Source of the DNA: a virus
Direction: 5' to 3' (one strand)
UHGV virus genome: UHGV-0323875
Length of the DNA stretch: 33,005 nt
Positions 891 to 11,938 of the stretch are shown piece after piece; the first letter of the stretch is position 1, and the number at the start of each line of letters is the position of its first letter. The notes beneath the pieces are model-generated. The model was not told the DNA's origin and searched no databases. It worked only from the letters and a program-made list of their open reading frames with translations. Position numbers and translations under genes: made by a program.

Positions 891-906
891 CTGTATGCAT
901 ATACAG
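891..906. promoter_or_regulatory. Consensus LexA (SOS) box CTGTATGCATATACAG in the promoter region of the leftward gene 1..812
   Basis: Perfect CTGT-N8-ACAG palindrome with an AT-rich spacer, about 80 nt upstream of the minus-strand ATG at 812; overlaps TTTACA/TATATG and TTGAAA/ATAATG promoter-like hexamers on the minus strand. Confidence 0.55.
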
Positions 907-1515
907 TATCATTCAATTTTGTAAAATTCAAACCTTGATTTTTGCCCATTCCTTACCACGATCATCATGGTATTTAGCTGTCTGGTTAGGCGATTTATGT
1001 CCCAGAAGTTTTTGGGTGTCGACGCCCTGAGCTTCGTAAAGTCGCTCAGATAAAGATCTTTGTTCATGGAATGTGGCGGGCGAACCTTCACCCCAGTCAA
1101 TGCCTGCTAAATCCCTCGCTTTACTGAAATTCATCGTCAATGTATTGGCTTTTACTTGCGCGCCACGTTCAGCCTGTGAAGTAGTACGAAAAAAATGTAC
1201 AAGGTATGGGCTGACTGCATAGTCACGGCAGCGGGCTACTACATCGCGTAAACTCCAGTTAATTGCATTGAGGCGAAGGGAAAGCGGGATGGCGATTTTG
1301 CTCCCGGTTTTTTCTTGGATGACGTGAAGATGATCATCCCAAATATCGCTAAATTTCATACGTGAGATATCACCTAACCGTTGGCCGGTAACCAGTGCTA
1401 ACAGCATGGCATTCCCCATATAACGATGGCGGGCATCTGCGATATCAAAGATTTTTTGCCATTCTTCAAGACTTAACCGTTGTCGGGTAATTTTTCTTCT
1501 GGGTTGTTTGGTTGC

Positions 1516-1552
1516 CAGTGCTGGATTATAGCCCGGAGGTACTTCCCCATAG
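1516..1552. repeat. Left arm of a 37 bp inverted repeat (1 mismatch) bounding the inverted int segment
   Basis: The reverse complement of 1516..1552 equals 1843..1879 except for one A/C difference; encodes GEVPPGYNPA on the minus strand. Confidence 0.85.
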
Positions 1553-1842
1553 GACAGGATCGCAACCAGCAAAGGAAAAGCAATCACAACGTCAACCTGG
1601 TTAGATCGCTATCAAGCAATCCAGGATGACAGACTGGAAAGTGGCGATATAAAGCTAAACACCTATAAACAGAAAGCCAAACCAGTATCCTTGCTCAGGG
1701 AACGAGCAGGAATGAAATTAATTTCATCAGTTGATGTAAGGGATATAGCACAATTACTTGACGAGTATATCACTGCCGGGCAACCGAGGATGGCGCAAGT
1801 AGTCCGCTCCGTTCTAATTGATGTATTCAAGGAGGCACAACA

Positions 1843-1879
1843 CTATGGGGAAGTCCCTCCGGGCTATAATCCAGCACTG
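1843..1879. repeat. Right arm of the 37 bp inverted repeat in int
   Basis: CTATGGGGAAGTCCCTCCGGGCTATAATCCAGCACTG; encodes GEVPPGYNPA on the plus strand. Confidence 0.85.
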
Positions 1880-2054
1880 CCGGGTTCTTTGCTCAGCCAG
1901 GCGTGAATTTGCCTCAGTGGCAATAGCAATGGCTTCAGCTTCGTTTGTGCCTAAAGAATGAAACTTCCCGGTCACTGGATGTTTATATCGCCAATAGACT
2001 TTATTTACTTTTCTACTATAAAGCGGATACAAGTTCGGGACTGAAACATTATTT

Positions 2055-2300
2055 TTACGTGGTCTGGCTGCCATTACTTAAAATCCTTTGTAGAATAATA
2101 GAATCATTTTTCTTGATGACAGGAGTAACTAATTCCCCAACTAACTCTGCGTCCTCACGCACTCGCCATAGTCGACCTTGTTTCATTGCCGGTGGACAAA
2201 ATAAATTCTGCTTAGCATAACGACGCAATGTGGACACGCTTGGAGGATTACTTCTGTATTTTTCCGCAGCCCATTCCTCAAGTGTCAGCATTTGAAGCAT
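2055..2300 (-). CDS. xis: Excisionase (lambda Xis-like)
   Basis: LTLEEWAAEKYRSNPPSVSTLRRYAKQNLFCPPAMKQGRLWRV parallels the lambda Xis N-terminus; overlaps the int start as in lambda; start chosen at the internal ATG with a GAGG RBS (ORF track extends to 2315). Confidence 0.7.
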   Translation of the reverse strand: MLQMLTLEEWAAEKYRSNPPSVSTLRRYAKQNLFCPPAMKQGRLWRVREDAELVGELVTPVIKKNDSIILQRILSNGSQTT

Positions 2301-2343
2301 TTTTGATAACCTCATTTCTTTTGCTACAAAACTATTTCACTAG

Positions 2344-2892
2344 TTAATTTCGCTGTCTGGATTGTTTATGCATCTTATGCAGCTCTTTAAAGCGTTCCAT
2401 AAACATCCCGTAGGCATGGCCCGGTGCCAGTGGAATCACGTTGAACATCTCTGTTGCCGGGATGCCTTCCAGTACAGGCCAGAAAGAGCCATCATCAAGC
2501 CCGAGATCGCGGCGTTCGGTTGCCAGCATGATGAGATCGGCATATTTCACGGGCGTACTCATAACCGGGGGTAACCCGTATTTCTCACGGATTACGGCGT
2601 CTATTTTTTCTTCCATCTGTTTATAGTCAGGAAGAAGGCGTTTCAGTGGAGCGGGGATGTCCTGGCAATACACTTCTGTTGCATCATGCATTAACGCTTC
2701 AAAAGCAAATTCCTGCGGTACCAGTTGGCTGCAAAGAACCGCATGTTGGGCGACGCTGTAGAAGTGTGAAAGATGTCCTGCAAAGCGACAGATATTTGAA
2801 AGGGAAAACGCGATATCGTTAATAACGATATCGTCTTTATTTATCCTGTCATAATAAAAATGCTTCCCAGAAAAAGTTTTAATAAATGACAT
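2344..2892 (-). CDS. HD-domain phosphohydrolase (YfbR/YfdR-like 5'-deoxynucleotidase family)
   Basis: H..H and HD motifs (FAGHLSHFYSVAQHAV...ALMHDATEVYCQDIPAPLK) align with the YfbR HD domain; start MSFIKTF with a GGAGAA RBS. Confidence 0.6.
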   Translation of the reverse strand: MSFIKTFSGKHFYYDRINKDDIVINDIAFSLSNICRFAGHLSHFYSVAQHAVLCSQLVPQEFAFEALMHDATEVYCQDIPAPLKRLLPDYKQMEEKIDAVIREKYGLPPVMSTPVKYADLIMLATERRDLGLDDGSFWPVLEGIPATEMFNVIPLAPGHAYGMFMERFKELHKMHKQSRQRN

Positions 2893-3020
2893 TTTGTTCT
2901 CCACGTTATTTGCGCTGCACCGCACTGAATTCTGGTAAAAGGAAGCCCTCACCATCCGGCGATTATTGAGTTAATTACGTTTCCATAAATGCCCCCGCAG
3001 GGGCATTTGCAGTAATCAAA

Positions 3021-3845
3021 TCAGGCGGTGAAAGTACCAATAAAGGTTTCTACTTTGCTGTCTTTGAATTTCTCAACAAGCAGATCGCGAAATTCGTTAG
3101 CCATTTCTTCCTGCACCGCCTCCAGCTGAATAATGCGCAGAACAAGTACAGGACGATCGCCAGTGATAATGCTGAGGCGTAATTTAAAAGAACGTTCTTT
3201 CAGACCTTCAAACGGAACGCATTTAAATTCAAATGCCACTGGCATAATGTCTTTGGTCTTCGCTTCGACAGACTCCATCAGGGAGCGTTTGCCGCTGAAG
3301 TCATTGTCTTCAAAATCAGCAGTCTGGTTCGCTTCAATTGTGATTTTACGGATCGCCGCAGCCGCTTTGGTTGCCTGAATGGCGTCACCATTAGCATCAA
3401 AGCCCACAAGGTTGTCGGCCCAGTCTTCAATCCATTCTGCCAGTGATTTCTGGGAGTTACGCTCGCCGTGAACAGACAACAGAGCAGAGAACGGTGCTGT
3501 CTTTTTCAGTTTGAGAGTGGCGGTGTTATCTGCGTGGCCTGGTTCATCAATAGTACCCAGGTTAAGCACACTGACGGCACGCATATTATCAGCATCGATA
3601 AAGCAGCGGGTGCCTTCATCTGCAAGATCTTTAGAATAACGGGTAAAGTCATCAATGCTGGCAGTGGAAAGCGCACCACGGAAACGGAAGCGATTTAAAT
3701 TAAATTTTTCCAGGTCATGAATGCGGAAATTCTCAGGCAATGCCACAGCATCGGCACCAATCTTACTGATAATTTCATTAACACCCTGAGCAGAAATAAG
3801 GGCATGGATTTGATTAATTGCGGTTGCGTCTAAGTTCTGAGACAT
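3021..3845 (-). CDS. Hypothetical prophage protein, 274 aa (YfdQ/DUF2303-like)
   Basis: Long ORF with ordinary composition; size and position match the YfdQ family of KplE1-type prophages (from memory, not searched). Confidence 0.5.
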
Positions 3846-3910
3846 AATAAGTCCTCACTATATAAAGATATTCAGTGATGAGATAAATAATCAGTTAATT
3901 AAAAACGATA

Positions 3911-4273
3911 TTAACGACCTGCTGCGCGGAGTTTTCCGTCAGGTTCACCGGCAAGAGTCAGTAACTGTCCCTGGTCTTCCTGCAGAATAGTCAGGCGACC
4001 ACCGCGATTGACATACATCGGCGTTTCGGTGGTGTCTTCTTCGGAAATTTTCCCGCGGTTAGTCGGGCGAACATATGAGAGTTTGTGTTTGATTTTCACA
4101 CGGTTCTCATCAAATGGTTCGATTTCCAGGTTGAGTGAGACCTTACCTTTGGTTTTCGTGTTCATCACACCGGAAGCGACTTCACTGAGAACTGCGCCGA
4201 TTTTGGTTTCAAATACGCCGCCGTCCAGCTCCCCGATAAATGCCTGCACATCAGTACTGCGTTCGCTAGCCAT
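3911..4273 (-). CDS. Hypothetical prophage protein, 120 aa (YfdP-like)
   Basis: Start MASERSTD preceded by a GAGGAG RBS; the upstream extension to 4591 in the ORF track is GC-rich non-coding-looking sequence. Confidence 0.5.
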   Translation of the reverse strand: MASERSTDVQAFIGELDGGVFETKIGAVLSEVASGVMNTKTKGKVSLNLEIEPFDENRVKIKHKLSYVRPTNRGKISEEDTTETPMYVNRGGRLTILQEDQGQLLTLAGEPDGKLRAAGR

Positions 4274-4710
4274 TTTGCTGCTCCTCATCATATCGACCCT
4301 GCAAGGCCGATTAGTTTCTCCACAAAACAGAGAAGAACACCTGCGGTGGCAGCCGCCCGGATGGATTGGGTTATGAGCCCGTCGTCCGGTGATGCTCTTC
4401 TCTGTTTTGTAAAAAGGACGGTACCAGCCGGAAGCAAGGGTACAAACTGGTACCGCCAGGACTACACACAGCATAAAGTTGTGGTGCCGGGTGCCTCCCG
4501 GTGCCTGGCGAAGGTTGCACACCAGACGGGTGGGTATCCACAGAAGGTCGACTGTCAGCCTCAACCTTAACCCGCGTGCGCTGAGCCGCATTCACCACAA
4601 CGCTAAGGATTCTCTCTGGTTGAAAATACTTAGCTGTTATGTGCCTGTCTTTTCACCACTTCAGGCTCGGTGGTATCCTTTTAAGCCCGTATACATAAAA
4701 GGAAAATCAA

Positions 4711-4860
4711 ATGACTTTTGATGAAAAAGAACTTGATAATGCAATTAATAAAATCATCGTAACGTCGCTCTTTTCCTGTCTCAGCGACACTCAGCAGAAA
4801 CAGTTCTACGAATCGGCTTTCAACATGATCGAGCGTTGTTGTTTCTGCGATGCCGACTAG
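4711..4860 (+). CDS. Small hypothetical protein, 49 aa
   Basis: ATG with an AAGGA RBS; MTFDEKELDNAINKII...; below the ORF-track size cut-off. Confidence 0.35.
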   Translation: MTFDEKELDNAINKIIVTSLFSCLSDTQQKQFYESAFNMIERCCFCDAD

Positions 4861-4873
4861 TTACCTGAAAAAA

Positions 4874-5149
4874 TCAGGAAACAGTTGGCTGATGCTCTTC
4901 GAGTGCGACTTTCTGACCAATTTTCTGAAATGTGCTCTCCGAATTTGGACAAATAGAAAAAGGCCATTTCCATTCAGGGTCTGATGGAAATACTTCAGCC
5001 TGTTCCAAAGCACGGCGTAAAGAGAACACAACTCCAGCCATAATCTGATGTTTCCCATTGGCCCAGCTATCGCCGCTCTGATCTACATGGGCGGCTATGT
5101 CGTATGACCAAACGACTTCACCACTATTGTTTAAAATCTGGACTTTCAT
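4874..5149 (-). CDS. Hypothetical protein, about 91 aa, first gene of the leftward operon downstream of cI
   Basis: ORF 4874..5170; an AGGTG RBS favours the internal start MKVQILNN. Confidence 0.4.
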   Translation of the reverse strand: MKVQILNNSGEVVWSYDIAAHVDQSGDSWANGKHQIMAGVVFSLRRALEQAEVFPSDPEWKWPFSICPNSESTFQKIGQKVALEEHQPTVS

Positions 5150-5275
5150 TTCATACACCTGCTTTAACATGAGTGCCTAGTGGCACAACATGACTCAACG
5201 AATCATCCTGGACTTCATATGCCCCAGGCGGCTACTTCGTGGGCGTCCTGCCTGTTCGTTATTTTTGATATAAAA

Positions 5276-5355: not shown

Positions 5356-5982
5356 TTAGAGTTCGTATTGAACTCCTTTGACTACACCAATGATAAGGCA
5401 ATTACCATTGATAGGGATGTTGGGATACCGAGGATTTAATGGCACTAAAAACTTTTGAGGGCCATCGATGACTAATTTTTTTACTGTAGCTTCGTTTGTT
5501 CCATCAAGTCGAGCGATGACTATTTTTCCATGACGAGGTTCTGCATCTGGATCTACAATCACTGTTGCGCCTTCTGGTATTGTTGGGAGGCCATTAGGGT
5601 TAGTCATGGAGTCACCTTTAACCTCTAATGCAAATGAGTTATCACCAATCTTTAATGATGTATCTACCCACTTGTCCACTTCACTAAACACTTCTGCTGC
5701 CCTGCACTCAGTAAACTGCCCAGCCTGAACCCACGATATTACAGGAACTCTGCGCATGTTTGTGACGAGTTTGCCTTCAAACTCAGCACCATAAAGAATG
5801 TAATCTATTGACGTATTGAAGAACTTCGCTAATTTCGAAAGTGCCTCCCCACCAGGGGTATTGATGTCTTTCTCCCAGTACCCCACAGCAACGTCGCTTA
5901 CTCCACAAAATTTACCCAATTCTTTCTGGGACGTTCCGGTAACTCTTCTCAGAGCTTTTATACGCTGACCAACCGTTTCCAT
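5356..5982 (-). CDS. cI: CI-type prophage repressor (N-terminal HTH, C-terminal S24 LexA-like peptidase domain)
   Basis: HTH segment TSQKELGKFCGVSDVAVGYWE; C-terminal GDSM...G.TV.VD...G.IV.AR motifs typical of S24 autocleaving repressors; divergent to cro. Confidence 0.9.
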   Translation of the reverse strand: METVGQRIKALRRVTGTSQKELGKFCGVSDVAVGYWEKDINTPGGEALSKLAKFFNTSIDYILYGAEFEGKLVTNMRRVPVISWVQAGQFTECRAAEVFSEVDKWVDTSLKIGDNSFALEVKGDSMTNPNGLPTIPEGATVIVDPDAEPRHGKIVIARLDGTNEATVKKLVIDGPQKFLVPLNPRYPNIPINGNCLIIGVVKGVQYEL

Positions 5983-6079: not shown

Positions 6080-6280
6080 ATGACAACTGACGATATCGAA
6101 AGCTACTTCGGCAGTATTGAGAAAGTTGCTGCTTTTTTCGGCATAACAACTGAAGCCGTTTATCAGTGGCGAAACCGTCCGGGCCAGTTAATTCCAAAAG
6201 GACGTGCAGCAGAAGCTGCATATAGAACTTGCGGACGGTTGCCATTTAAACCTGAGCTTTATGAAAAATCTAATGGATAA
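6080..6280 (+). CDS. cro: Cro-like HTH regulator (YdaS/Cro family)
   Basis: 66 aa; GGAGGG RBS; ITTEAVYQWRNRPGQLIP is a Cro/YdaS-like HTH; divergent from cI. Confidence 0.75.
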   Translation: MTTDDIESYFGSIEKVAAFFGITTEAVYQWRNRPGQLIPKGRAAEAAYRTCGRLPFKPELYEKSNG

Positions 6281-6869
6281 ATCGATTAACAGAAACCACA
6301 GAACGATGAGGCTAACCGTGGGTAAGCATCACTGGAAAGTAGAAAAACAGCCTGAGTGGTACGTGAAAGCTGTCAGAAAAACTATCGCAGCGTTGCCGGG
6401 TGGTTACGCTGAAGCAGCTGACTGGCTGGATGTAACAGAAAACGCATTATTTAACCGCCTTCGTGCCGATGGCGATCAGATTTTCCCGCTGGGATGGGCA
6501 ATGATTTTGCAACGTGCTGGTGGAACTCACTTCATTGCTGACGCTGTGGCGCAGTCTGCAAATGGCGTCTTTGTGTCTCTTCCTGACGTCGAGGATGTGG
6601 ACAACGCCGATATTAACCAGCGCCTGCTGGAAGTCATTGAACAGATTGGCAGTTATTCCAGACAGATTCGTTCGGCAATCGAAGACGGTGTGGTGGAACC
6701 GCATGAGAAGACAGCAATTAACGACGAGCTGTATCTCTCAATTTCGAAGCTGCAGGAGCATGCAGCACTGGTCTACAAAATCTTTTGCATTTCAGAAAGT
6801 AATGACGCCCGCGAGTGTGCAGCTCCGGGCGCCGTGGCGTGTCGTGACTGTGGAGAAACTAACGCATGA
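6261..6869 (+). CDS. CII-like regulatory protein (putative)
   Basis: Position immediately after cro; about 200 aa; start ambiguous (ATG at 6261 or 6273, ORF track 6204). Confidence 0.45.
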
Positions 6870-7204
6870 ACAGTTTAACAACACACTACCGTCGCTCGCA
6901 ACTGATTGCGCTTCCTGTACCGGGTGGAAAAGCGAAGGTGGAGTATTGCTATGCAGTTAATGTACCAGGTGACAGGGAAATTGTAACCCACAGCTTTGCT
7001 GAGTGGGCTGTGGGTGATTTCAACCGGCAGAAGGAGACAGTCCTTTGCGACAAGTTAACCGCTGGTTCAAAGATCACTACGGAGTGCCCGTCAGAGTCAT
7101 TCGTTGGGAGCCGGAAACACAACGAGTTATCTACCTCCGCGAAGGCTATGAGCATGAGTGCTTCAGCCCGCTCGAACAGTTTCGTCGTAAATTCAGGGAA
7201 ATAG
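6866..7204 (+). CDS. Hypothetical protein; only the first ~60 codons look protein-like and a second frame (7045..7224, AAGGAG + TTG) looks more coding downstream
   Basis: Frame-2 [13 protein letters not shown]...; frame-1 ORF encodes [54 protein letters not shown]; possible frameshift or two overlapping small genes. Confidence 0.35.
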
Positions 7205-7213
7205 AGGTCGGTC

Positions 7214-8155
7214 ATGAGCACTAAATTAACCGGCTATGTATGGGATGGTTGCGCTGCATCAGGCATGAAATTATCCAGCGTGGCAATTATGGCCCGCCTG
7301 GCTGATTTCAGTAATGACGAAGGTGTGTGCTGGCCATCAATTGAAACTATTGCCCGTCAGATTGGCGCGGGGATGAGTACCGTCAGGACGGCTATCGCAC
7401 GGCTGGAAGCAGAAGGCTGGTTAACGCGTAAGGCGCGTCGCCAGGGTAACCGCAATGCGTCGAATGTTTATCAGCTTAACGTTGCGAAGCTTCAGGCAGC
7501 GGCATTTTCTCAACTGTCAGATTCTGACCCGTCAAAATCTGACGCATCAAAATCTGACCCGTCAAAATTTGATGCGTCGAAATCTGGCAAAAAAGCGGGT
7601 TTTCACCCGTCAGAATCTGGCGGGGATCCGTCAGTAAAATCAAAACATGATCCGTCAGATAAAAAACCTTCTCGTCCGGACGCTTCGCAACCGGACACGC
7701 AGACGGATGAACAGGATTTTTTAACTCGCCATCCTGATGCGGTTGTATTCAGCCCTAAAAAGCGCCAGTGGGGAACGCAGGATGATTTGACCTGCGCACA
7801 GTGGCTCTGGAAAAAAATCATCGCCCTGTACGAGCAAGCCGCCGAATGTGACGGCGAGGTGGTTCGTCCCAAAGAACCGAACTGGACAGCCTGGGCAAAC
7901 GAAATTCGCCTGATGTGTGTGCAGGATGGTCGTACTCACAAACAAATCTGCGAGATGTACAGCCGCGTCAGCCGCGATCCGTTCTGGTGCCGTAACGTGC
8001 TCAGCCCGTCGAAGTTGCGGGAAAAATGGGATGAGCTTTCCCTGCGCTTATCGCCGTCCGTCAGCACGCACACAGAAAAACGCGAAGACCCGTACTTCAA
8101 AGCCAGTTACGACAATGTGGACTACAGCCAGATCCCGGCGGGATTCAGGGGGTGA
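7214..8155 (+). CDS. Replication initiation protein (lambda O-like, N-terminal winged HTH)
   Basis: Position after cro/cII; N-terminal HTH; internal low-complexity linker (DPSKSDASKSDPSKFDASKS) encoded by iteron-like repeats, as in lambda O. Confidence 0.7.
   Translation: MSTKLTGYVWDGCAASGMKLSSVAIMARLADFSNDEGVCWPSIETIARQIGAGMSTVRTAIARLEAEGWLTRKARRQGNRNASNVYQLNVAKLQAAAFSQLSDSDPSKSDASKSDPSKFDASKSGKKAGFHPSESGGDPSVKSKHDPSDKKPSRPDASQPDTQTDEQDFLTRHPDAVVFSPKKRQWGTQDDLTCAQWLWKKIIALYEQAAECDGEVVRPKEPNWTAWANEIRLMCVQDGRTHKQICEMYSRVSRDPFWCRNVLSPSKLREKWDELSLRLSPSVSTHTEKREDPYFKASYDNVDYSQIPAGFRG
7513..7660. repeat. Iteron-like ~15 bp tandem repeats (CCGTCAAAATCTGAC variants) inside the O-like gene, followed by an A-rich stretch: putative phage replication origin
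   Basis: At least 5 tandem or near-tandem copies, plus further CCGTCAG motifs. Confidence 0.6.
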
Positions 8156-8646
8156 TCATGAGTCTTTTGAATGACGTTCAGAAATTCATTGAAGCCCATC
8201 CGGGCTGTTCTTCCGGAGACATTGCGGATGCTTTTGCAGGTTACTCACGGCTGCGCGTTCTGCAGTCAGCAAGCAAGTTACGTCAGAGTGGGCGTGTGGC
8301 TCACCGTTGTGAAGGAGATACACGCAGACATTTCCCGCGCCTGACTGAGAGAGCGCAGGAGCCGGAACCACAACCAGTTCGTGAAACCAGACCTGTGCGC
8401 AATTTCTATGTCGGCACTAACGATCCCCGGGTGATTTTGTGCCTGACCCGCCAGGCTGAAGAACTGGAGTCCAGGGGCTTATACCGTCGTGCTGCAACGG
8501 TGTGGATGGCGGCATTCCGTGAAAGCCACTCCCAGCCAGAACGAAACAATTTTCTGGCGCGTCGTGAGCAGTGCTTACAGAAAAGCAGCAAGCGCGCTGC
8601 ATCGGGTGAAGAGTGGTATCTGTCAGGGAATTACGTGGGGGCGTAA
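8152..8646 (+). CDS. Hypothetical protein, 164 aa (possible PerC/YfdN-like regulator)
   Basis: Start and stop overlap the neighbouring genes; C-terminal LYRRAATVWMAAFRES segment resembles PerC/ANR-type helices (weak, from memory). Confidence 0.45.
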   Translation: MIMSLLNDVQKFIEAHPGCSSGDIADAFAGYSRLRVLQSASKLRQSGRVAHRCEGDTRRHFPRLTERAQEPEPQPVRETRPVRNFYVGTNDPRVILCLTRQAEELESRGLYRRAATVWMAAFRESHSQPERNNFLARREQCLQKSSKRAASGEEWYLSGNYVGA

Positions 8647-8972
8647 TGACGACGTTAACTCAATGCCAGCATCAGGTGCTGGATATGCTGATTTCTTACC
8701 AGAAAGAGCGTGGCTTTCCGCCAACCAATCAGGAGGTGGCAACCATGCTGGGATACCGTTCAGTGAATGCAGCGGTAGAGCATCTTCGTGCACTGGAGAA
8801 AAAAGGCGTCATCACGATAAAGCGTGGCGTGGCCCGGGGGATCACGCTTCATACCACAGTGAAGGACGACGACAGCGAGGCAGCCGGGATTATCCGCGCA
8901 CTGCTTGCCGGTGAGGAAAACGCCAGACTGCGTGCAGCCCACTGGTTACATGAGAGGGGCCTGAAAGTATGA
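8646..8972 (+). CDS. LexA-like DNA-binding-domain protein with no S24 peptidase domain
   Basis: LTQCQHQVLDMLISYQKERGFPPTNQEVATMLGYRSVNAAVEHLRALEKKGVITIKRGVARGITL parallels the E. coli LexA N-terminal winged HTH nearly residue for residue; the protein ends after about 108 aa. Confidence 0.7.
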   Translation: MTTLTQCQHQVLDMLISYQKERGFPPTNQEVATMLGYRSVNAAVEHLRALEKKGVITIKRGVARGITLHTTVKDDDSEAAGIIRALLAGEENARLRAAHWLHERGLKV

Positions 8973-9358
8973 AGCTGATCCTGCCTTTCCCGCCCAGCGT
9001 GAACACGTACTGGCGACACCCCAACAAAGGGGCGTTTGCTGGTAAGAGTCTGATAAGCGCAGCGGGGCGCAAATTCCAGAGCGCGGCATGCGCAGCAATA
9101 GTTGAGCAGTTACGTCGTCTGCCGAAACCAACGTCGGCACCTGCTTCAGTGGAGATCGTGTTGTTTCCTCCGGATAACCGGATCCGCGATCTGGACAACT
9201 ATAACAAGGCGCTGTTTGACGCCCTGACCCACGCGGGTGTGTGGGAAGACGACAGACAGGTGAAAAGAATGCTGGTGGAGTGGGGACCGGTTATCCCGGA
9301 AGGGAAGGTCGAGATCACTATCAGTAAGTATGAGAAACCGGCGGGTGCAGCCGCCTGA
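8969..9358 (+). CDS. rusA: Holliday junction resolvase RusA
   Basis: LPFPPSVNTYWRH...RDLDNYNKALFDALTHAGVWEDDRQV matches the RusA signature. Confidence 0.85.
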   Translation: MKLILPFPPSVNTYWRHPNKGAFAGKSLISAAGRKFQSAACAAIVEQLRRLPKPTSAPASVEIVLFPPDNRIRDLDNYNKALFDALTHAGVWEDDRQVKRMLVEWGPVIPEGKVEITISKYEKPAGAAA

Positions 9359-9377
9359 TTAAGAGGAGAAACGAAGT

Positions 9378-10175
9378 ATGAATAATCTGATGGTTATTGA
9401 TGGTATTGAAGTTCGTCGTGATGCTTATGGGCGTTACAGCCTGAACGATCTGCACAGGGCTGCCGGTTCTCTGGATAAGCATAAGCCTGCATTCTGGCTC
9501 CGTAATGAGCAAACTGAACGTTTAATAAGCGAGTTGCAGATTTGCAACTCGGTCAATATAGAGCCAGTTAACGTTATTCGTGGCGGAAATAACCAGGGGA
9601 CGTATGTCTGCAAAGAACTGGTGTATGCCTATGCAATGTGGATCAGCCCGTCATTCCATCTGAAGGTGATCCGTACTTTCGATATGGTAACCAGCACACC
9701 GGAAAAATTATCCGGGCAGGCTGCTGACAAGATGCAGGCTGGCGTGATCCTGCTGGACTTTATGCGCCGGGAGTTAAACCTGTCTAACTCTTCAGTGCTT
9801 GGTGCCTGTCAGAAACTCCAGGAGGCTGTTGGCTTACCGAATCTGGCTCCGCGCTATGCCATTGATGCTCCTGCTGACGCGCCTGATGGCTCAAGCCGCC
9901 CCACGCTGTCACTGAGTGCACTGCTGAAGCAGTATGGTATCTGCCTGACAGCTAATCAGGCATATCACCAGATGGCGAAGCTGGGGATCGTTGAACAACG
10001 CGAACGATACAGCCGTACCGCGATTAACAACATCAAAAAATTCTGGTCGCTGACGGCGAAAGGCTGCATGTTCGGCAAGAACATCACCAGTCCTGCAAAT
10101 CCGCGCGAGACGCAGCCGCATTTCTTCGAATCCCGATTCCCTGAGCTGTTAAAGCTGCTCGATACCGTTCATTGA
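9378..10175 (+). CDS. KilA-N domain protein (antirepressor-like)
   Basis: N-terminal YSLNDLHRAAG...KP.FWLR motif of the KilA-N domain; GAGGAG RBS. Confidence 0.65.
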   Translation: MNNLMVIDGIEVRRDAYGRYSLNDLHRAAGSLDKHKPAFWLRNEQTERLISELQICNSVNIEPVNVIRGGNNQGTYVCKELVYAYAMWISPSFHLKVIRTFDMVTSTPEKLSGQAADKMQAGVILLDFMRRELNLSNSSVLGACQKLQEAVGLPNLAPRYAIDAPADAPDGSSRPTLSLSALLKQYGICLTANQAYHQMAKLGIVEQRERYSRTAINNIKKFWSLTAKGCMFGKNITSPANPRETQPHFFESRFPELLKLLDTVH

Positions 10176-10176
10176 G

Positions 10177-11172
10177 GTGACCGTGAGAGCACTACTGACC
10201 CCTGAAATTGCCCCGCGTATGGGGATCGTATTGTTCAGACCAGGTTCAGAGCTGATGCCCCTGTTTATGCAGGGGCGTGTCCTGCTGGAGCCTGAGCCGG
10301 AACGTTATTCATCTTTCGCCAGTGGTGCCGTTCCGGCGGCATCACAACCGCTGGCGGATGATCCTGCCGTTCAGGCCGTGTTCCGCAATGAGGCAGTGAT
10401 CCGTCGTGCTGGTGGCGTGGAATGTCTTGAAAGCTGGTTACTTCGTGAAAAAGGCTGCCAGTGGCCTCATTCCGACTGGCACAGCGAGAACATGACCACA
10501 ATGCGACACGCTCCGGGCGCAATCCGTCTGTGCTGGCACTGCGATAACCAGCTGCGCGATCAGTTCACGGAACGGCTGGAATCAATGGCAACGGATAACT
10601 GTGCCCGCTGGGTGTTGTCTGTTGTGCGTCGGGATCTCGGTTTTGATGACAGTCACGTTGTGACAATGCCGGAACTGTGCTGGTGGCTGATTCGTAATGA
10701 CCTGGCGGATGCCTTACCGGAAAGTGCAGCCCGTAAGGCACTTAGATTACCGAAGCCTGTTGTGCCGTCTGTCACCCGGGAAAGTGACCTTGTGCCTTCG
10801 GTTCCTGCCACCAGCATCATCCAGGATAAGGCGAAAAAGGTGCTGGCGCTGAAAGTGGATCCGGAGTCGCCGGAGTCTTTTATGTTACGCCCAAAACGTC
10901 GCCGCTGGGTTAATGAAAAGTACACGCGCTGGGTTAAGACACAGCCGTGTGCATGTTGTGGAAAGCCTGCTGATGATCCCCACCACTTGATAGGCCACGG
11001 TCAGGGGGGAATGGGTACAAAAGCGCATGACCTCTTTGTGTTGCCTTTGTGCAGAAAGCATCACGACGAGCTGCATGCGGATACCGTGGCATTTGAAGAG
11101 AAGTATGGCTCCCAGCTGGAGCTGATATTTCGTTTTATCGATCGTGCGCTGGCAATAGGCGTACTGGCGTAA
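10177..11172 (+). CDS. DUF968-like protein with a C-terminal Cys/His (HNH-like) motif
   Basis: C-terminal CACCGKPADDPHHLIGHGQGG...LCRKHHDELH; GTG start directly after the KilA-N stop. Confidence 0.45.
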   Translation: MTVRALLTPEIAPRMGIVLFRPGSELMPLFMQGRVLLEPEPERYSSFASGAVPAASQPLADDPAVQAVFRNEAVIRRAGGVECLESWLLREKGCQWPHSDWHSENMTTMRHAPGAIRLCWHCDNQLRDQFTERLESMATDNCARWVLSVVRRDLGFDDSHVVTMPELCWWLIRNDLADALPESAARKALRLPKPVVPSVTRESDLVPSVPATSIIQDKAKKVLALKVDPESPESFMLRPKRRRWVNEKYTRWVKTQPCACCGKPADDPHHLIGHGQGGMGTKAHDLFVLPLCRKHHDELHADTVAFEEKYGSQLELIFRFIDRALAIGVLA

Positions 11173-11185
11173 GTGGAGAATGAGC

Positions 11186-11938
11186 ATGAACCTTGAAGCC
11201 TTACCAAAATATTACTCCCCAAAATCTCCAAAATTGAGCGATGACGCACCGGCGACAGGCTCTGGTGGTTTAACGATTACGGATGTGATGGCTGCGCAGG
11301 GGATGGTGCAGTCGAAAGCACCACTGGGTTTTGCCTTATTCCTGGCAAAAGTTGGTGTTCAGGATCCTCAGTTTGCGATTGAAGGTCTGCTCAATTACGC
11401 GATGGCACTGGATAACCCGACATTGAATAAATTGAGTGAAGAAACCCGGTTACAGATCATCCCTTACCTTGTGAATTTTGCCTTTGCTGATTATTCCAGG
11501 TCTGCGGCAAGTAAGGCTCGCTGTGAGCATTGTGCTGGTACTGGATTTCATAATGTATTGCGCGAAGTGGTGAAACACTCCAGAAGCGGTGAATCTGTTA
11601 TCAAGGAGGAGTGGGTGAAGGAACTATGTCAGCATTGTCATGGTAAGGGAGAAGTCAGCACAGCGTGCAGAGGGTGTAAGGGTAAAGGTATTGTCCTGGA
11701 TGAAAAAAGGACCCGGCTTCATGGCACGCCTGTTTATAAGATTTGTGGGCGTTGCAATGGAAACCGGTTTAGCCGTTTACCAACCACACTGGCGCGGCAT
11801 CATGTCCAGAAGCTGGTACCAGACCTGACGGATTATCAGTGGTACAAAGGATATGCAGATGTCATTGATAAACTGGTTACAAAGTGCTGGCAGGAAGAAG
11901 CATATGCAGAGACACAATTGAGAAAGGTGACAAGATAA
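11186..11938 (+). CDS. Late-gene antitermination protein Q-like (zinc-binding CxxC repeats)
   Basis: Position immediately upstream of the late promoter/terminator and lysis genes; CEHCAGTG, CQHCHGKG, CRGCKGKG, CGRCNG motifs. Confidence 0.6.
   Translation: MNLEALPKYYSPKSPKLSDDAPATGSGGLTITDVMAAQGMVQSKAPLGFALFLAKVGVQDPQFAIEGLLNYAMALDNPTLNKLSEETRLQIIPYLVNFAFADYSRSAASKARCEHCAGTGFHNVLREVVKHSRSGESVIKEEWVKELCQHCHGKGEVSTACRGCKGKGIVLDEKRTRLHGTPVYKICGRCNGNRFSRLPTTLARHHVQKLVPDLTDYQWYKGYADVIDKLVTKCWQEEAYAETQLRKVTR

What the first reader, a model, noticed from the sequence alone, without database searches (positions are those of the whole stretch)
7513..7660. Replication origin iterons embedded in the O-like initiator gene
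Tandem ~15 bp repeats with a CCGTCA(A/G)AATCTGAC core, followed by an A-rich stretch, lie inside the coding linker of the initiator, mirroring lambda ori within gene O. This marks the likely prophage replication origin.
Basis: partly seen in the sequence, partly recalled or inferred. Interest (0 to 1): 0.4.

Follow-up and report, generated by a model that had tools for sequence, protein, structure and literature searches.

The report
Prophage replication origin inside initiator gene
A cluster of short palindromic DNA repeats followed by an easily melted A/T-rich stretch, lying inside the replication-initiator gene of an SfII/SfIV-like E. coli prophage, is very probably the phage's replication origin; this is the classical lambda arrangement with a different repeat sequence and DNA-binding domain.

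Summary
Window 7516-7621 carries six copies of a 13-bp palindrome, GTCARAATCTGRC. Five are abutting at 15-bp phase and one is distal. Two 24-bp GATC-containing repeats follow (7625-7672); they form the least stable DNA of the gene.

The block lies inside gene 7214-8155. This gene encodes a 313-aa initiator with a winged-helix N-domain, a predicted disordered linker (aa 102-162, the repeat block) and a lambda-O-type C-domain.

The origin interpretation is supported by comparison, not by experiment:
- In 84 distinct homologous genes from many Enterobacterales genera, the repeats follow the N-domain whatever C-domain is attached.
- Synonymous sites are frozen in the repeats: Ser TCA 93% and TCT 85%, against 17% and 9% background.
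- Third codon positions are as conserved as first and second ones (0.84, against 0.55 in the N-domain).
- In two genes the distal repeat is kept in another reading frame.
- The same stability calculation recovers the known A/T-rich regions of lambda and P22.

Differences from lambda: the N-domain is Pfam HTH_36 rather than Phage_rep_O, the palindromes abut at 15 bp, a GATC pair is conserved, and no helicase-loader gene is present.

Verdict: a new member of a known kind, of modest interest.

The parts
7214..8155 (+). Initiator gene (313 aa), O-like. It has a wHTH N-domain, a disordered linker and a lambda-O-type C-domain.
   Evidence: ORF. PHROG 391, E 1e-135. Pfam HTH_36 at aa 23-70. 98.7-99.3% nt identity to phages SfII, SfIV and vB_EcoM-689R6. 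AF2 domain map.
7214..7516 (+). Coding region for the N-terminal winged-helix DNA-binding domain (aa 1-101), the presumed iteron reader.
   Evidence: Pfam HTH_36, E 4e-11. AF2 helices and wing at aa 3-103. Foldseek matches to dimeric MarR/ArsR wHTH proteins. Always co-inherited with the repeats.
7516..7528 (.). Iteron 1, GTCAGATTCTGAC (perfect 13-bp palindrome).
7531..7543 (.). Iteron 2, GTCAAAATCTGAC.
7546..7558 (.). Iteron 3, ATCAAAATCTGAC.
7561..7573 (.). Iteron 4, GTCAAAATTTGAT.
7576..7588 (.). Iteron 5, GTCGAAATCTGGC (more degenerate).
   Evidence: family D1
7589..7608 (.). Spacer with an A6 tract and a T4 tract (AAAAAAGCGGGTTTTCACCC). The A-tract/T-tract pattern is conserved in homologues.
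   Evidence: The minus-strand hairpin seen here is not conserved in homologues.
7609..7621 (.). Distal iteron 6, GTCAGAATCTGGC. This is the most conserved copy of the family and is kept in another reading frame in L006 and L079.
7625..7672 (.). Two 24-bp repeats, GATCCGTCAG(T/A)(A/T)AAA.... Each starts with a Dam site (GATC at 7625 and 7649) and contains a half-iteron.
   Evidence: D8. GATC pair spaced 24 bp in 63 of 74 homologues. Three copies in L080.
7633..7673 (.). Least stable 40-bp segment of the gene (70% A+T, A-rich on the coding strand), the candidate DNA-unwinding element.
   Evidence: Same position in 67 of 74 homologues, and the method recovers the lambda and P22 A/T-rich regions.
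7706..8053 (+). Coding region for the lambda-O-type C-terminal domain (aa 165-280), the presumed replisome-recruitment domain.
   Evidence: BLASTP against lambda O, E 8e-26, and against phi80 gp15, E 4e-25. Confident helical fold.
8126..8152 (+). C-terminal motif SQIPAGFRG, matching the C-terminus of E. coli DnaT (SQIPPGFRG).

Best explanation
Window 7516-7673 is the replication origin of this SfII/SfIV-like lambdoid prophage, embedded in the linker-coding part of its own initiator gene.

Shown by the sequence and by comparison:
- Six 13-bp palindromic iterons, five abutting at 15-bp phase and one distal.
- A conserved A-tract/T-tract spacer.
- Two 24-bp GATC-bearing repeats that form the least stable DNA of the gene.
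- All of this is conserved as DNA, independently of what it encodes, and is inherited together with the N-terminal winged-helix domain.

Inferred by analogy with lambda O, phi80 gp15 and P22 gp18:
- Dimers of the N-terminal wHTH domain bind each palindrome and assemble an O-some-like nucleoprotein complex.
- That complex distorts the DNA and opens the adjacent A/T-rich segment (about 7633-7673).
- Rightward early transcription through the gene may help activation.
- The lambda-O-type C-domain then brings in the host DnaB helicase.

How the helicase is recruited is the weakest step, because no P-, DnaC- or DnaB-like gene is present. Two possibilities are direct use of host DnaB-DnaC and use of the DnaT-like C-terminal motif. 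Dam methylation of the conserved GATC pair may modulate firing; this is speculative.
For: 1. Repeats are real and unique in the window.
2. The host gene is an O-like initiator whose C-domain is homologous to lambda O and phi80 gp15.
3. Position matches known origins. Lambda iterons lie at gene nt 349-433, phi80 gp15 sites at nt 365-441, the P22 rep_origin at nt 353-497, and the element here at nt 303-460.
4. 84 distinct homologues across Enterobacterales keep 3-9 phased copies right after the N-domain. The N-domain plus repeats combine with at least 3 unrelated C-domain types.
5. Codon freeze in peptide-defined units (n=229): Ser1 TCA 93% against 17% background, Ser2 TCT 85% against 9%, Lys AAA 100% against 63%, Glu GAA 97% against 57%. 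Conserved N-domain residues in the same genes have a mean top-codon fraction of 0.53.
6. Third codon positions are conserved 0.84 in the distal block against 0.55 in the N-domain, p 2.6e-9.
7. L006 and L079 keep the distal iteron (TTTTCACCCGTCAGAATCTGAC in L079, GTTTGACCCTTCAGAATCTGAC in L006) in a shifted frame. In L079 1-nt indels on either side of it change the peptide from FHPSESG to FTRQNLT.
8. Symmetric covariation at the palindrome flanks: T..A 196 and C..G 40, against T..G 52 and C..A 14.
9. A 66%-identical N-domain (L092) has different 15-bp iterons, TTGACCCGTCAAATA.
10. The least stable 40-bp window of the gene is 7633-7673. It is at the same place in 67 of 74 homologues, and the calculation finds the known A/T-rich regions of lambda and P22.
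11. The block codes for a predicted disordered linker, so protein constraint there should be weak.
12. SfII and SfIV, isolated and characterised as phages, carry this gene at about 99% identity, and the window holds no other recognisable replication initiator, helicase or loader gene.
Against: - No experiment exists: no binding, unwinding or autonomous-replication data for this family were found in the searchable literature.
- The A/T-rich segment is only 68-70% A+T, against 78-80% in lambda and P22.
- No helicase loader or helicase gene is present in the early region, so the step after origin opening is unexplained.
- The 15-bp centre-to-centre spacing of abutting palindromes differs from the 20-24 bp spacing of the lambda and phi80 iterons.
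- All array copies are in one reading frame, so part of their similarity could reflect recent slippage duplication.
- The plasmid collection gave no minimal replicon built on this module.
Confidence: 0.8

Rival explanations
1. The repeats are only a by-product of a repetitive, flexible peptide linker (SD[PA]SK units made by replication slippage) and have no function as DNA.
For: All array units are in frame with a period of 15, i.e. 5 codons. Copy number varies between close relatives: L002 has 5 and L004 has 7. The region is predicted disordered.
Against: Synonymous codons are almost fixed in the units, whereas they drift in the N-domain of the same genes. Third positions are as conserved as first and second ones. 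The distal copy is preserved in a different reading frame, encoding a different peptide, in L006 and L079. Each unit is a palindrome with symmetric flank covariation, which a peptide repeat does not require.
Confidence: 0.04
2. The repeats are a functional DNA element bound by the initiator or another protein, but they are not the site of initiation. Examples would be an autoregulatory or copy-control (handcuffing) array, a SeqA/Dam-controlled regulatory site, or a conserved junction favouring recombinational module exchange. The true origin would lie elsewhere.
For: Iterons in plasmids also serve copy control. The GATC pair is conserved. The mosaic junction between N- and C-modules lies just downstream, near window 7656-7692. 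No loader gene sits next to the gene.
Against: No other repeat cluster or iteron copy exists anywhere in the 33-kb window. The repeats are directly followed by the least stable DNA of the gene, at the position where lambda and P22 have their unwinding regions. The arrangement matches three annotated lambdoid origins.
Confidence: 0.12
3. The palindromes act at RNA level, as mRNA hairpins that affect translation or stability of the initiator message, or as a small RNA.
For: Palindromic units can fold. There is a weak Rfam hit (mir-5880, 30.7 bits against a gathering score of 97) and a terminator-like hairpin on the minus strand at 7609..7596.
Against: The Rfam hit is far below threshold and is to a eukaryotic miRNA family. 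No promoter-like site is found. The hairpin at 7596-7609 is not conserved in homologues, while the A-tract/T-tract and the iteron are. Symmetry is within 13-bp units typical of dimer binding sites.
Confidence: 0.02

Closest known systems
Bacteriophage lambda ori within gene O (four 18-bp iterons, A/T-rich region; O protein)
   Same: The origin lies inside the initiator gene, at the junction between the N- and C-domain coding parts. The iterons are multiple and palindromic. An A-rich, least-stable segment lies immediately downstream on the coding strand. [quoted passage not shown]
   Different: The N-terminal DNA-binding domain is Pfam HTH_36, not Phage_rep_O. The iteron sequence is unrelated. 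Here there are six copies, five abutting at 15 bp, against four at 20-24 bp in lambda. The A/T-rich part is 70% A+T against 78%. No P gene follows, and there is an extra DnaT-like C-terminal motif.
phi80 ori within gene 15 (four annotated gp15 binding sites) and P22 / phage L ori within gene 18
   Same: Same architecture and the same relative position in the gene. The phi80 gp15 C-domain is homologous to the window protein (E 4e-25). The literature states that each of these initiators binds its own iterons inside its own coding region.
   Different: The N-domains of phi80 gp15 and P22 gp18 are Phage_rep_O. BLASTP finds no significant similarity to P22 gp18 (best E 0.48). Both phages have a partner gene downstream: gene 14, P-like, in phi80, and gene 12, DnaB-like, in P22.
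Iteron-containing plasmid origins (RepA/RepE/pi-type winged-helix initiators)
   Same: A winged-helix initiator, an array of repeated binding sites next to an A/T-rich unwinding element, and variable copy number.
   Different: Plasmid iterons are typically direct repeats of about 19-22 bp spaced on one helical face, and they are accompanied by DnaA boxes. Here the units are 13-bp palindromes at 15 bp, no DnaA box lies in or near the block, and the array is inside a coding region.

Membership tests
Lambdoid origin embedded in the initiator gene (ori lambda / phi80 / P22 type) | Repeats lie inside the initiator ORF, between the DNA-binding N-domain and the C-domain coding parts. | tested here: met
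   The repeats occupy gene nt 303-408, in the predicted linker aa 102-162. Lambda iterons lie at nt 349-433, phi80 sites at 365-441 and the P22 origin at 353-497.
Lambdoid origin embedded in the initiator gene (ori lambda / phi80 / P22 type) | Four or more iterons with internal dyad symmetry. | tested here: met
   Six copies of GTCARAATCTGRC. The cluster is unique in the window, with 0 of 100 shuffles reaching the count.
Lambdoid origin embedded in the initiator gene (ori lambda / phi80 / P22 type) | An A/T-rich, easily melted segment immediately downstream of the iterons. | tested here: met
   7633-7673 is the least stable 40-bp window of the gene (70% A+T). It is at the same place in 67 of 74 homologues. 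The positive control on lambda and P22 worked. The segment is weaker than in lambda and P22 (78-80% A+T).
Lambdoid origin embedded in the initiator gene (ori lambda / phi80 / P22 type) | Iterons co-inherited with the N-terminal specificity domain and conserved as DNA. | tested here: met
   84 distinct genes, at least 3 C-domain types, codon freeze, third-position conservation, a frame-shifted copy, and variant iterons with a variant N-domain.
Lambdoid origin embedded in the initiator gene (ori lambda / phi80 / P22 type) | The initiator binds the iterons, and the fragment supports initiator-dependent replication. | not testable with these tools
   This needs a footprint or EMSA and a mini-replicon assay. 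No such data were found in the literature searches.
Lambdoid origin embedded in the initiator gene (ori lambda / phi80 / P22 type) | A partner helicase-loader or helicase gene directly downstream (lambda P, phi80 14, P22 12). | tested here: not met
   The downstream gene is PerC-like. No P-, DnaC- or DnaB-like gene is found in the early regions. Only 5 of 84 homologues are followed by a DnaC-like gene.
Lambda O protein family | N-terminal Phage_rep_O (PF04492) origin-binding domain. | tested here: not met
   The window protein hits HTH_36 (E 4e-11) and not PF04492. Lambda O, P22 gp18 and phi80 gp15 all hit PF04492.
Lambda O protein family | Lambda-O-type C-terminal domain. | tested here: met
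   BLASTP E 8e-26 against lambda O and 4e-25 against phi80 gp15, over aa ~169-278.
Iteron plasmid origins (Rep winged-helix type) | Direct repeats of about 19-22 bp phased with the DNA helix, plus DnaA box(es). | tested here: not met
   The units are 13-bp palindromes at 15-bp spacing. No DnaA box with at most 1 mismatch lies between 6850 and 9469.
Dam/SeqA-controlled origins (oriC-like GATC clustering) | Clustered, conserved GATC sites in the unwinding region. | tested here: inconclusive
   There are two GATC sites 24 bp apart. That spacing is conserved in 63 of 74 homologues, and the local density is 23.6 per kb against 3.2 per kb elsewhere. There are only two sites, and they are part of a repeated motif. 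Methylation and SeqA binding were not testable.

The most novel reading that the evidence does not exclude
This widespread initiator family may fire its origin without any phage-encoded helicase loader. The initiator would dock onto host replication-restart or helicase-loading machinery through a portable C-terminal motif (...IPxGFRG) that copies the C-terminus of the host primosomal protein DnaT. A conserved pair of Dam sites in the unwinding element would give methylation- or SeqA-dependent control.
Probability: 0.15. Interest if true: 0.6.

Novelty: new member of a known kind. Interest (0 to 1): 0.3.

Why it matters
The gene is present at 80% or more coverage in 1576 of 5426 complete E. coli genomes. 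It is also found in the serotype-converting Shigella phages SfII and SfIV and in prophages of many Enterobacterales genera. Yet the records examined annotate no origin, and the SfIV genome paper does not describe one.

Pinning the origin to 7516-7673 gives three things:
- a precise target for mini-replicon construction;
- a marker for reading induced-prophage coverage peaks;
- a basis for predicting replication specificity or incompatibility among co-resident prophages.

It also adds a fourth, non-Phage_rep_O specificity class to the textbook lambda, phi80 and P22 series. It supplies a clean example of DNA-level selection overriding coding constraints. The absence of a loader gene, together with the DnaT-like tail, points to a testable question about helicase recruitment.

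Tried and rejected
- **Rfam scan of 6800-8400.** Only a far sub-threshold hit to a eukaryotic miRNA family, caused by the palindromes. Rejected.
- **Promoter scan of 7000-8300.** No promoter-like site. The terminator-like hairpin at 7609..7596 on the minus strand is not conserved in homologues. Rejected as a feature.
- **DnaA boxes and IHF consensus in the origin.** None found. TGATCCACA in the GATC repeats of L079 and L080 (and of L088, in its second repeat only) is an 8/9 DnaA-box match, but the window has TGATCCGTC (5/9).
- **Plasmid collection search for a minimal replicon using this module.** It returned only prophages in large replicons, e14-like circles and a prophage fragment. This gives no functional evidence.
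- **Homology of the lambda-O-type C-domain to the DnaT C-terminal domain.** Profile comparison aligns only the last 14 residues. Domain homology rejected, motif resemblance kept.
- **PDB sequence searches.** The whole protein gave only weak MarR matches. The tail gave nothing.
- **Foldseek against the PDB.** Only generic wHTH matches to the N-domain and nothing for the C-domain.
- **Degenerate iteron-like sequence at 7353-7374, inside the HTH-coding part.** Synonymous sites there are not conserved, so it is treated as chance.
- **Literature.** The SfV genome paper (PMC134923) is not held. Searches for the motif sequence found only unrelated primers.

Full report
**What the window is.** The region is the early-right operon of a lambdoid prophage. 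It runs CI-like repressor (5356-5982, minus strand), Cro-like (6080-6280), CII-like (6204-6869), a small PHROG 1170 ORF of unknown function (6866-7204), a 313-aa protein (7214-8155), PerC-like (8152-8646), a LexA-DNA-binding-like protein, RusA, a KilA-N-type regulator, an HNH protein and Q. The 313-aa gene is 98.7-99.3% identical in DNA to genes of Shigella phages SfII and SfIV and of Escherichia phage vB_EcoM-689R6. It is present at 80% or more coverage in 1576 of 5426 complete E. coli genomes. It matches PHROG 391, 'replication initiation O-like', at E 1e-135, and Pfam HTH_36 at aa 23-70.

**The observation.**
- Tandem Repeats Finder finds a 15-bp-period array at 7523-7586 (4.3 copies; a 30-bp period scores even better). 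It is the best tandem repeat in the 33 kb.
- Read in the register that makes sense for the isolated copies, the unit is a 13-bp palindrome, GTCARAATCTGRC. Copies lie at 7516 (perfect: GTCAGATTCTGAC), 7531, 7546, 7561 and 7576. After a 20-bp spacer holding an A6 and a T4 tract there is a sixth copy at 7609.
- The 11-mer core with at most one mismatch occurs nowhere else in the window: 5 matches against 0.64 expected, and none of 100 shuffles reaches 5.
- After the sixth copy come two 24-bp repeats, GATCCGTCAG(T/A)(A/T)AAA..., at 7625 and 7649.
- The 40 bp starting at 7633 are the least stable of the whole gene by nearest-neighbour free energy. They are 70% A+T, A-rich on the coding strand, and in the top 3% of the window.
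The element runs from about 7516 to 7673.

**Is it DNA or peptide that is conserved?** I collected the gene from eight phages and 80 genome loci: Citrobacter, Klebsiella, Kluyvera, Yersinia, Providencia, Proteus, Pantoea, Rahnella, Tatumella and others, with N-domain identity of 52-100%. That gives 84 distinct genes. Nearly all have 3-9 phased copies of the core starting at gene nt ~298-320. Copy number differs even between close relatives: 5 in L002 against 7 in L004. Five lines of evidence show selection on the DNA itself.

1. *Codon usage.* Units were defined by peptide only (S[KE]S[DEG], n=229).

| Residue | Codon | In repeat units | Elsewhere in the same genes |
|---|---|---|---|
| First Ser | TCA | 93% | 17% |
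| Second Ser | TCT | 85% | 9% |
| Lys | AAA | 100% | 63% |
| Glu | GAA | 97% | 57% |

   These are the codons the palindrome needs. Conserved residues of the N-domain in the same genes use their top codon only 53% of the time on average, with up to six Ser codons in use.
2. *Codon positions.* In the distal block (7597-7673) third codon positions are as conserved as first and second ones (0.84 against 0.86). In the N-domain the figures are 0.55 against 0.89 (Mann-Whitney p 2.6e-9). Part of the block was used to anchor the alignment, but positions outside the anchor behave the same.
3. *Reading frame.* In L079 and L006 the distal iteron and its left flank (TTTTCACCCGTCAGAATCTGAC in L079, GTTTGACCCTTCAGAATCTGAC in L006) are retained in a different reading frame. 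In L079 1-nt indels on either side of the iteron change the peptide from FHPSESG to FTRQNLT.
4. *Symmetric covariation.* The bases flanking the core covary symmetrically: T..A 196 and C..G 40, against T..G 52 and C..A 14. In distant members the palindrome extends to CCTCCAGAATCTGGAGG.
5. *Variant pairing.* A 66%-identical N-domain (L092) is followed by a different 15-bp unit, TTGACCCGTCAAATA. The most divergent member (L088, 52%) has different array repeats.

The AlphaFold2 model (43-sequence alignment) shows a winged-helix N-domain (aa 1-101), a low-confidence linker (aa 102-162, window 7517-7699) and a confident helical C-domain (165-280). The conserved DNA block therefore codes for the part of the protein least likely to be constrained as protein.

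**Is it an origin?**
- The N-domain plus repeat block is joined to at least three unrelated C-terminal modules: lambda-O-type in 17 genes, Phg_2220_C in 62, and a third type in 2. The mosaic junction lies just after the block. This is the modular behaviour known for lambdoid initiators and their cognate origins.
- The window's C-domain is homologous to lambda O (E 8e-26) and phi80 gp15 (E 4e-25).
- The annotated iterons of lambda (gene nt 349-433), the gp15 sites of phi80 (365-441) and the P22 rep_origin (353-497) occupy the same relative position as the block here (303-460).
- The stability calculation, applied blind to lambda O and P22 gene 18, picks the known A/T-rich regions directly after their iterons (nt 436 and 435). 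In 67 of 74 homologues of the window gene it picks the segment 0-20 nt after the GGNGATCC motif that follows the distal iteron.
- A published genome analysis states the general rule that lambda O, P22 gp18 and phage L gp18 each bind distinct iterons within their own coding regions (PMC8022706).
- SfII and SfIV were isolated and characterised as phages. The window holds no other recognisable replication initiator, helicase or loader gene, and the SfIV paper describes no origin.
- The Foldseek neighbours of the N-domain are dimeric MarR/ArsR-type winged-helix regulators that read palindromes. The matches are weak (E 2.7e-3 or higher) but consistent with the proposal.

**Proposed mechanism.**

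*Shown:* the anatomy, and DNA-level purifying selection on the iterons, the spacer tracts, the GATC repeats and the A/T-rich segment.

*Inferred:*
- N-domain dimers occupy the six palindromes.
- The packed array (15 bp centre to centre, about 1.4 helical turns) and the A-tract/T-tract spacer shape the DNA.
- The adjacent 7633-7673 segment opens.
- The C-domain recruits the helicase.

The last step is uncertain because no P-, DnaC- or DnaB-like gene is present. Only 5 of 84 family members are followed by a DnaC-like gene. 24 are followed by PerC-like genes and about 32 by DNA methyltransferase genes.

**What does not fit lambda.**
- The N-domain is not Phage_rep_O.
- The iterons abut at 15 bp instead of 20-24 bp.
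- The A/T-rich part is milder (70% against 78-80% A+T).
- A GATC pair spaced exactly 24 bp is conserved in 63 of 74 genes. Local GATC density is 23.6 per kb against 3.2 per kb elsewhere.
- No DnaA box or IHF site lies in the block.

**Rivals.** A pure peptide-repeat explanation is contradicted by the codon, third-position and frame-shift evidence. A DNA element that is regulatory rather than the initiation site cannot be excluded without experiments. It is less likely, given the adjacent unwinding-prone segment and the absence of any other repeat cluster. An RNA-level role has no support.

**Novelty and score.** An origin inside an O-like gene is textbook, so this is a new member of a known kind. 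It adds a previously unannotated iteron class with a different winged-helix specificity domain, widespread in Enterobacterales prophages. Interest is modest (0.3). The most novel reading still open is loader-independent initiation through the C-terminal SQIPAGFRG motif. That motif matches the C-terminus of E. coli DnaT in 8 of 9 residues; the DnaT sequence was verified against PDB 9zbt_D. The motif recurs at the end of two unrelated C-domain types. Profile comparison shows no domain homology beyond the tail.

Noticed in passing
window 8126-8152 (last 9 codons of the initiator): The initiator ends in SQIPAGFRG, matching 8 of 9 residues of the C-terminus of E. coli primosomal protein DnaT (SQIPPGFRG). 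A terminal GFR[GSTA] motif also ends 33 of 62 homologues with an unrelated Phg_2220_C C-domain and 5 of 17 with the lambda-O-type domain. It therefore behaves as a portable short motif, and only the tail aligns with DnaT in profile comparison. Its binding partner is unknown.
   Followed up: partly
window 8152-11938 and 900-5200; loci L001-L088 downstream of the initiator: No helicase or helicase-loader gene accompanies the initiator in this prophage. Across 84 relatives the next gene is PerC-like in 24, a DNA methyltransferase in about 32, and DnaC-like in only 5.
   Followed up: partly
window 7625-7628 and 7649-7652: Two Dam sites (GATC) exactly 24 bp apart lie in the A/T-rich segment. The 24-bp spacing is kept in 63 of 74 homologues. 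Many relatives encode an adenine methyltransferase right after the initiator, but the window prophage does not.
   Followed up: partly
L089 863-886 (lambda) and L093 8781-8803 (phi80); also L064, L075 and L081 after their A/T-rich blocks: To the right of their A/T-rich regions, lambda has TCGTCAGAGAATTCTGGCGAATCC and phi80 has the related TCGTCCGAGAATTCTGACGAATCC. The lambda copy contains a near-palindrome, TCAGAgaatTCTGG, resembling this family's iteron TCAGAaTCTGG. A related segment is kept in homologues with the lambda-O-type C-module but not in the window. It could be chance or a shared ancestry of sites.
   Followed up: no
L079, L080 and L088, GATC repeats after the distal iteron: In a divergent subgroup the GATC repeat reads TGATCCACA, an 8/9 match to the DnaA box TTATCCACA (in L088 only the second repeat does). 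L080 has three such 24-bp repeats. The window has TGATCCGTC (5/9).
   Followed up: no
L063 (E. coli ECDA1023) and L091 (OR902851.1, 15-kb e14-like circle): Defective e14-like elements carry the first ~79 codons of this N-domain. In L063 they are fused to a terminase-like reading frame, a deletion remnant without the iterons.
   Followed up: partly
window 7353-7374: A degenerate copy of the distal iteron context (CCCGTCAGATTGGCGCGGGGAT, against CCCGTCAGAATCTGGCGGGGAT at 7606-7627) lies inside the helix-turn-helix coding part. Synonymous sites there are not conserved in homologues, so it is probably chance.
   Followed up: yes
L092 (NZ_CP148542.1, 15,977-bp record labelled plasmid) 1675-2700: This is a prophage fragment deposited as a circular plasmid. 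It has a variant initiator (66% N-domain identity, different iterons, internal stop in the linker) followed by an annotated ATP-binding protein. It is probably an assembly artefact or an excised fragment rather than a true replicon.
   Followed up: partly
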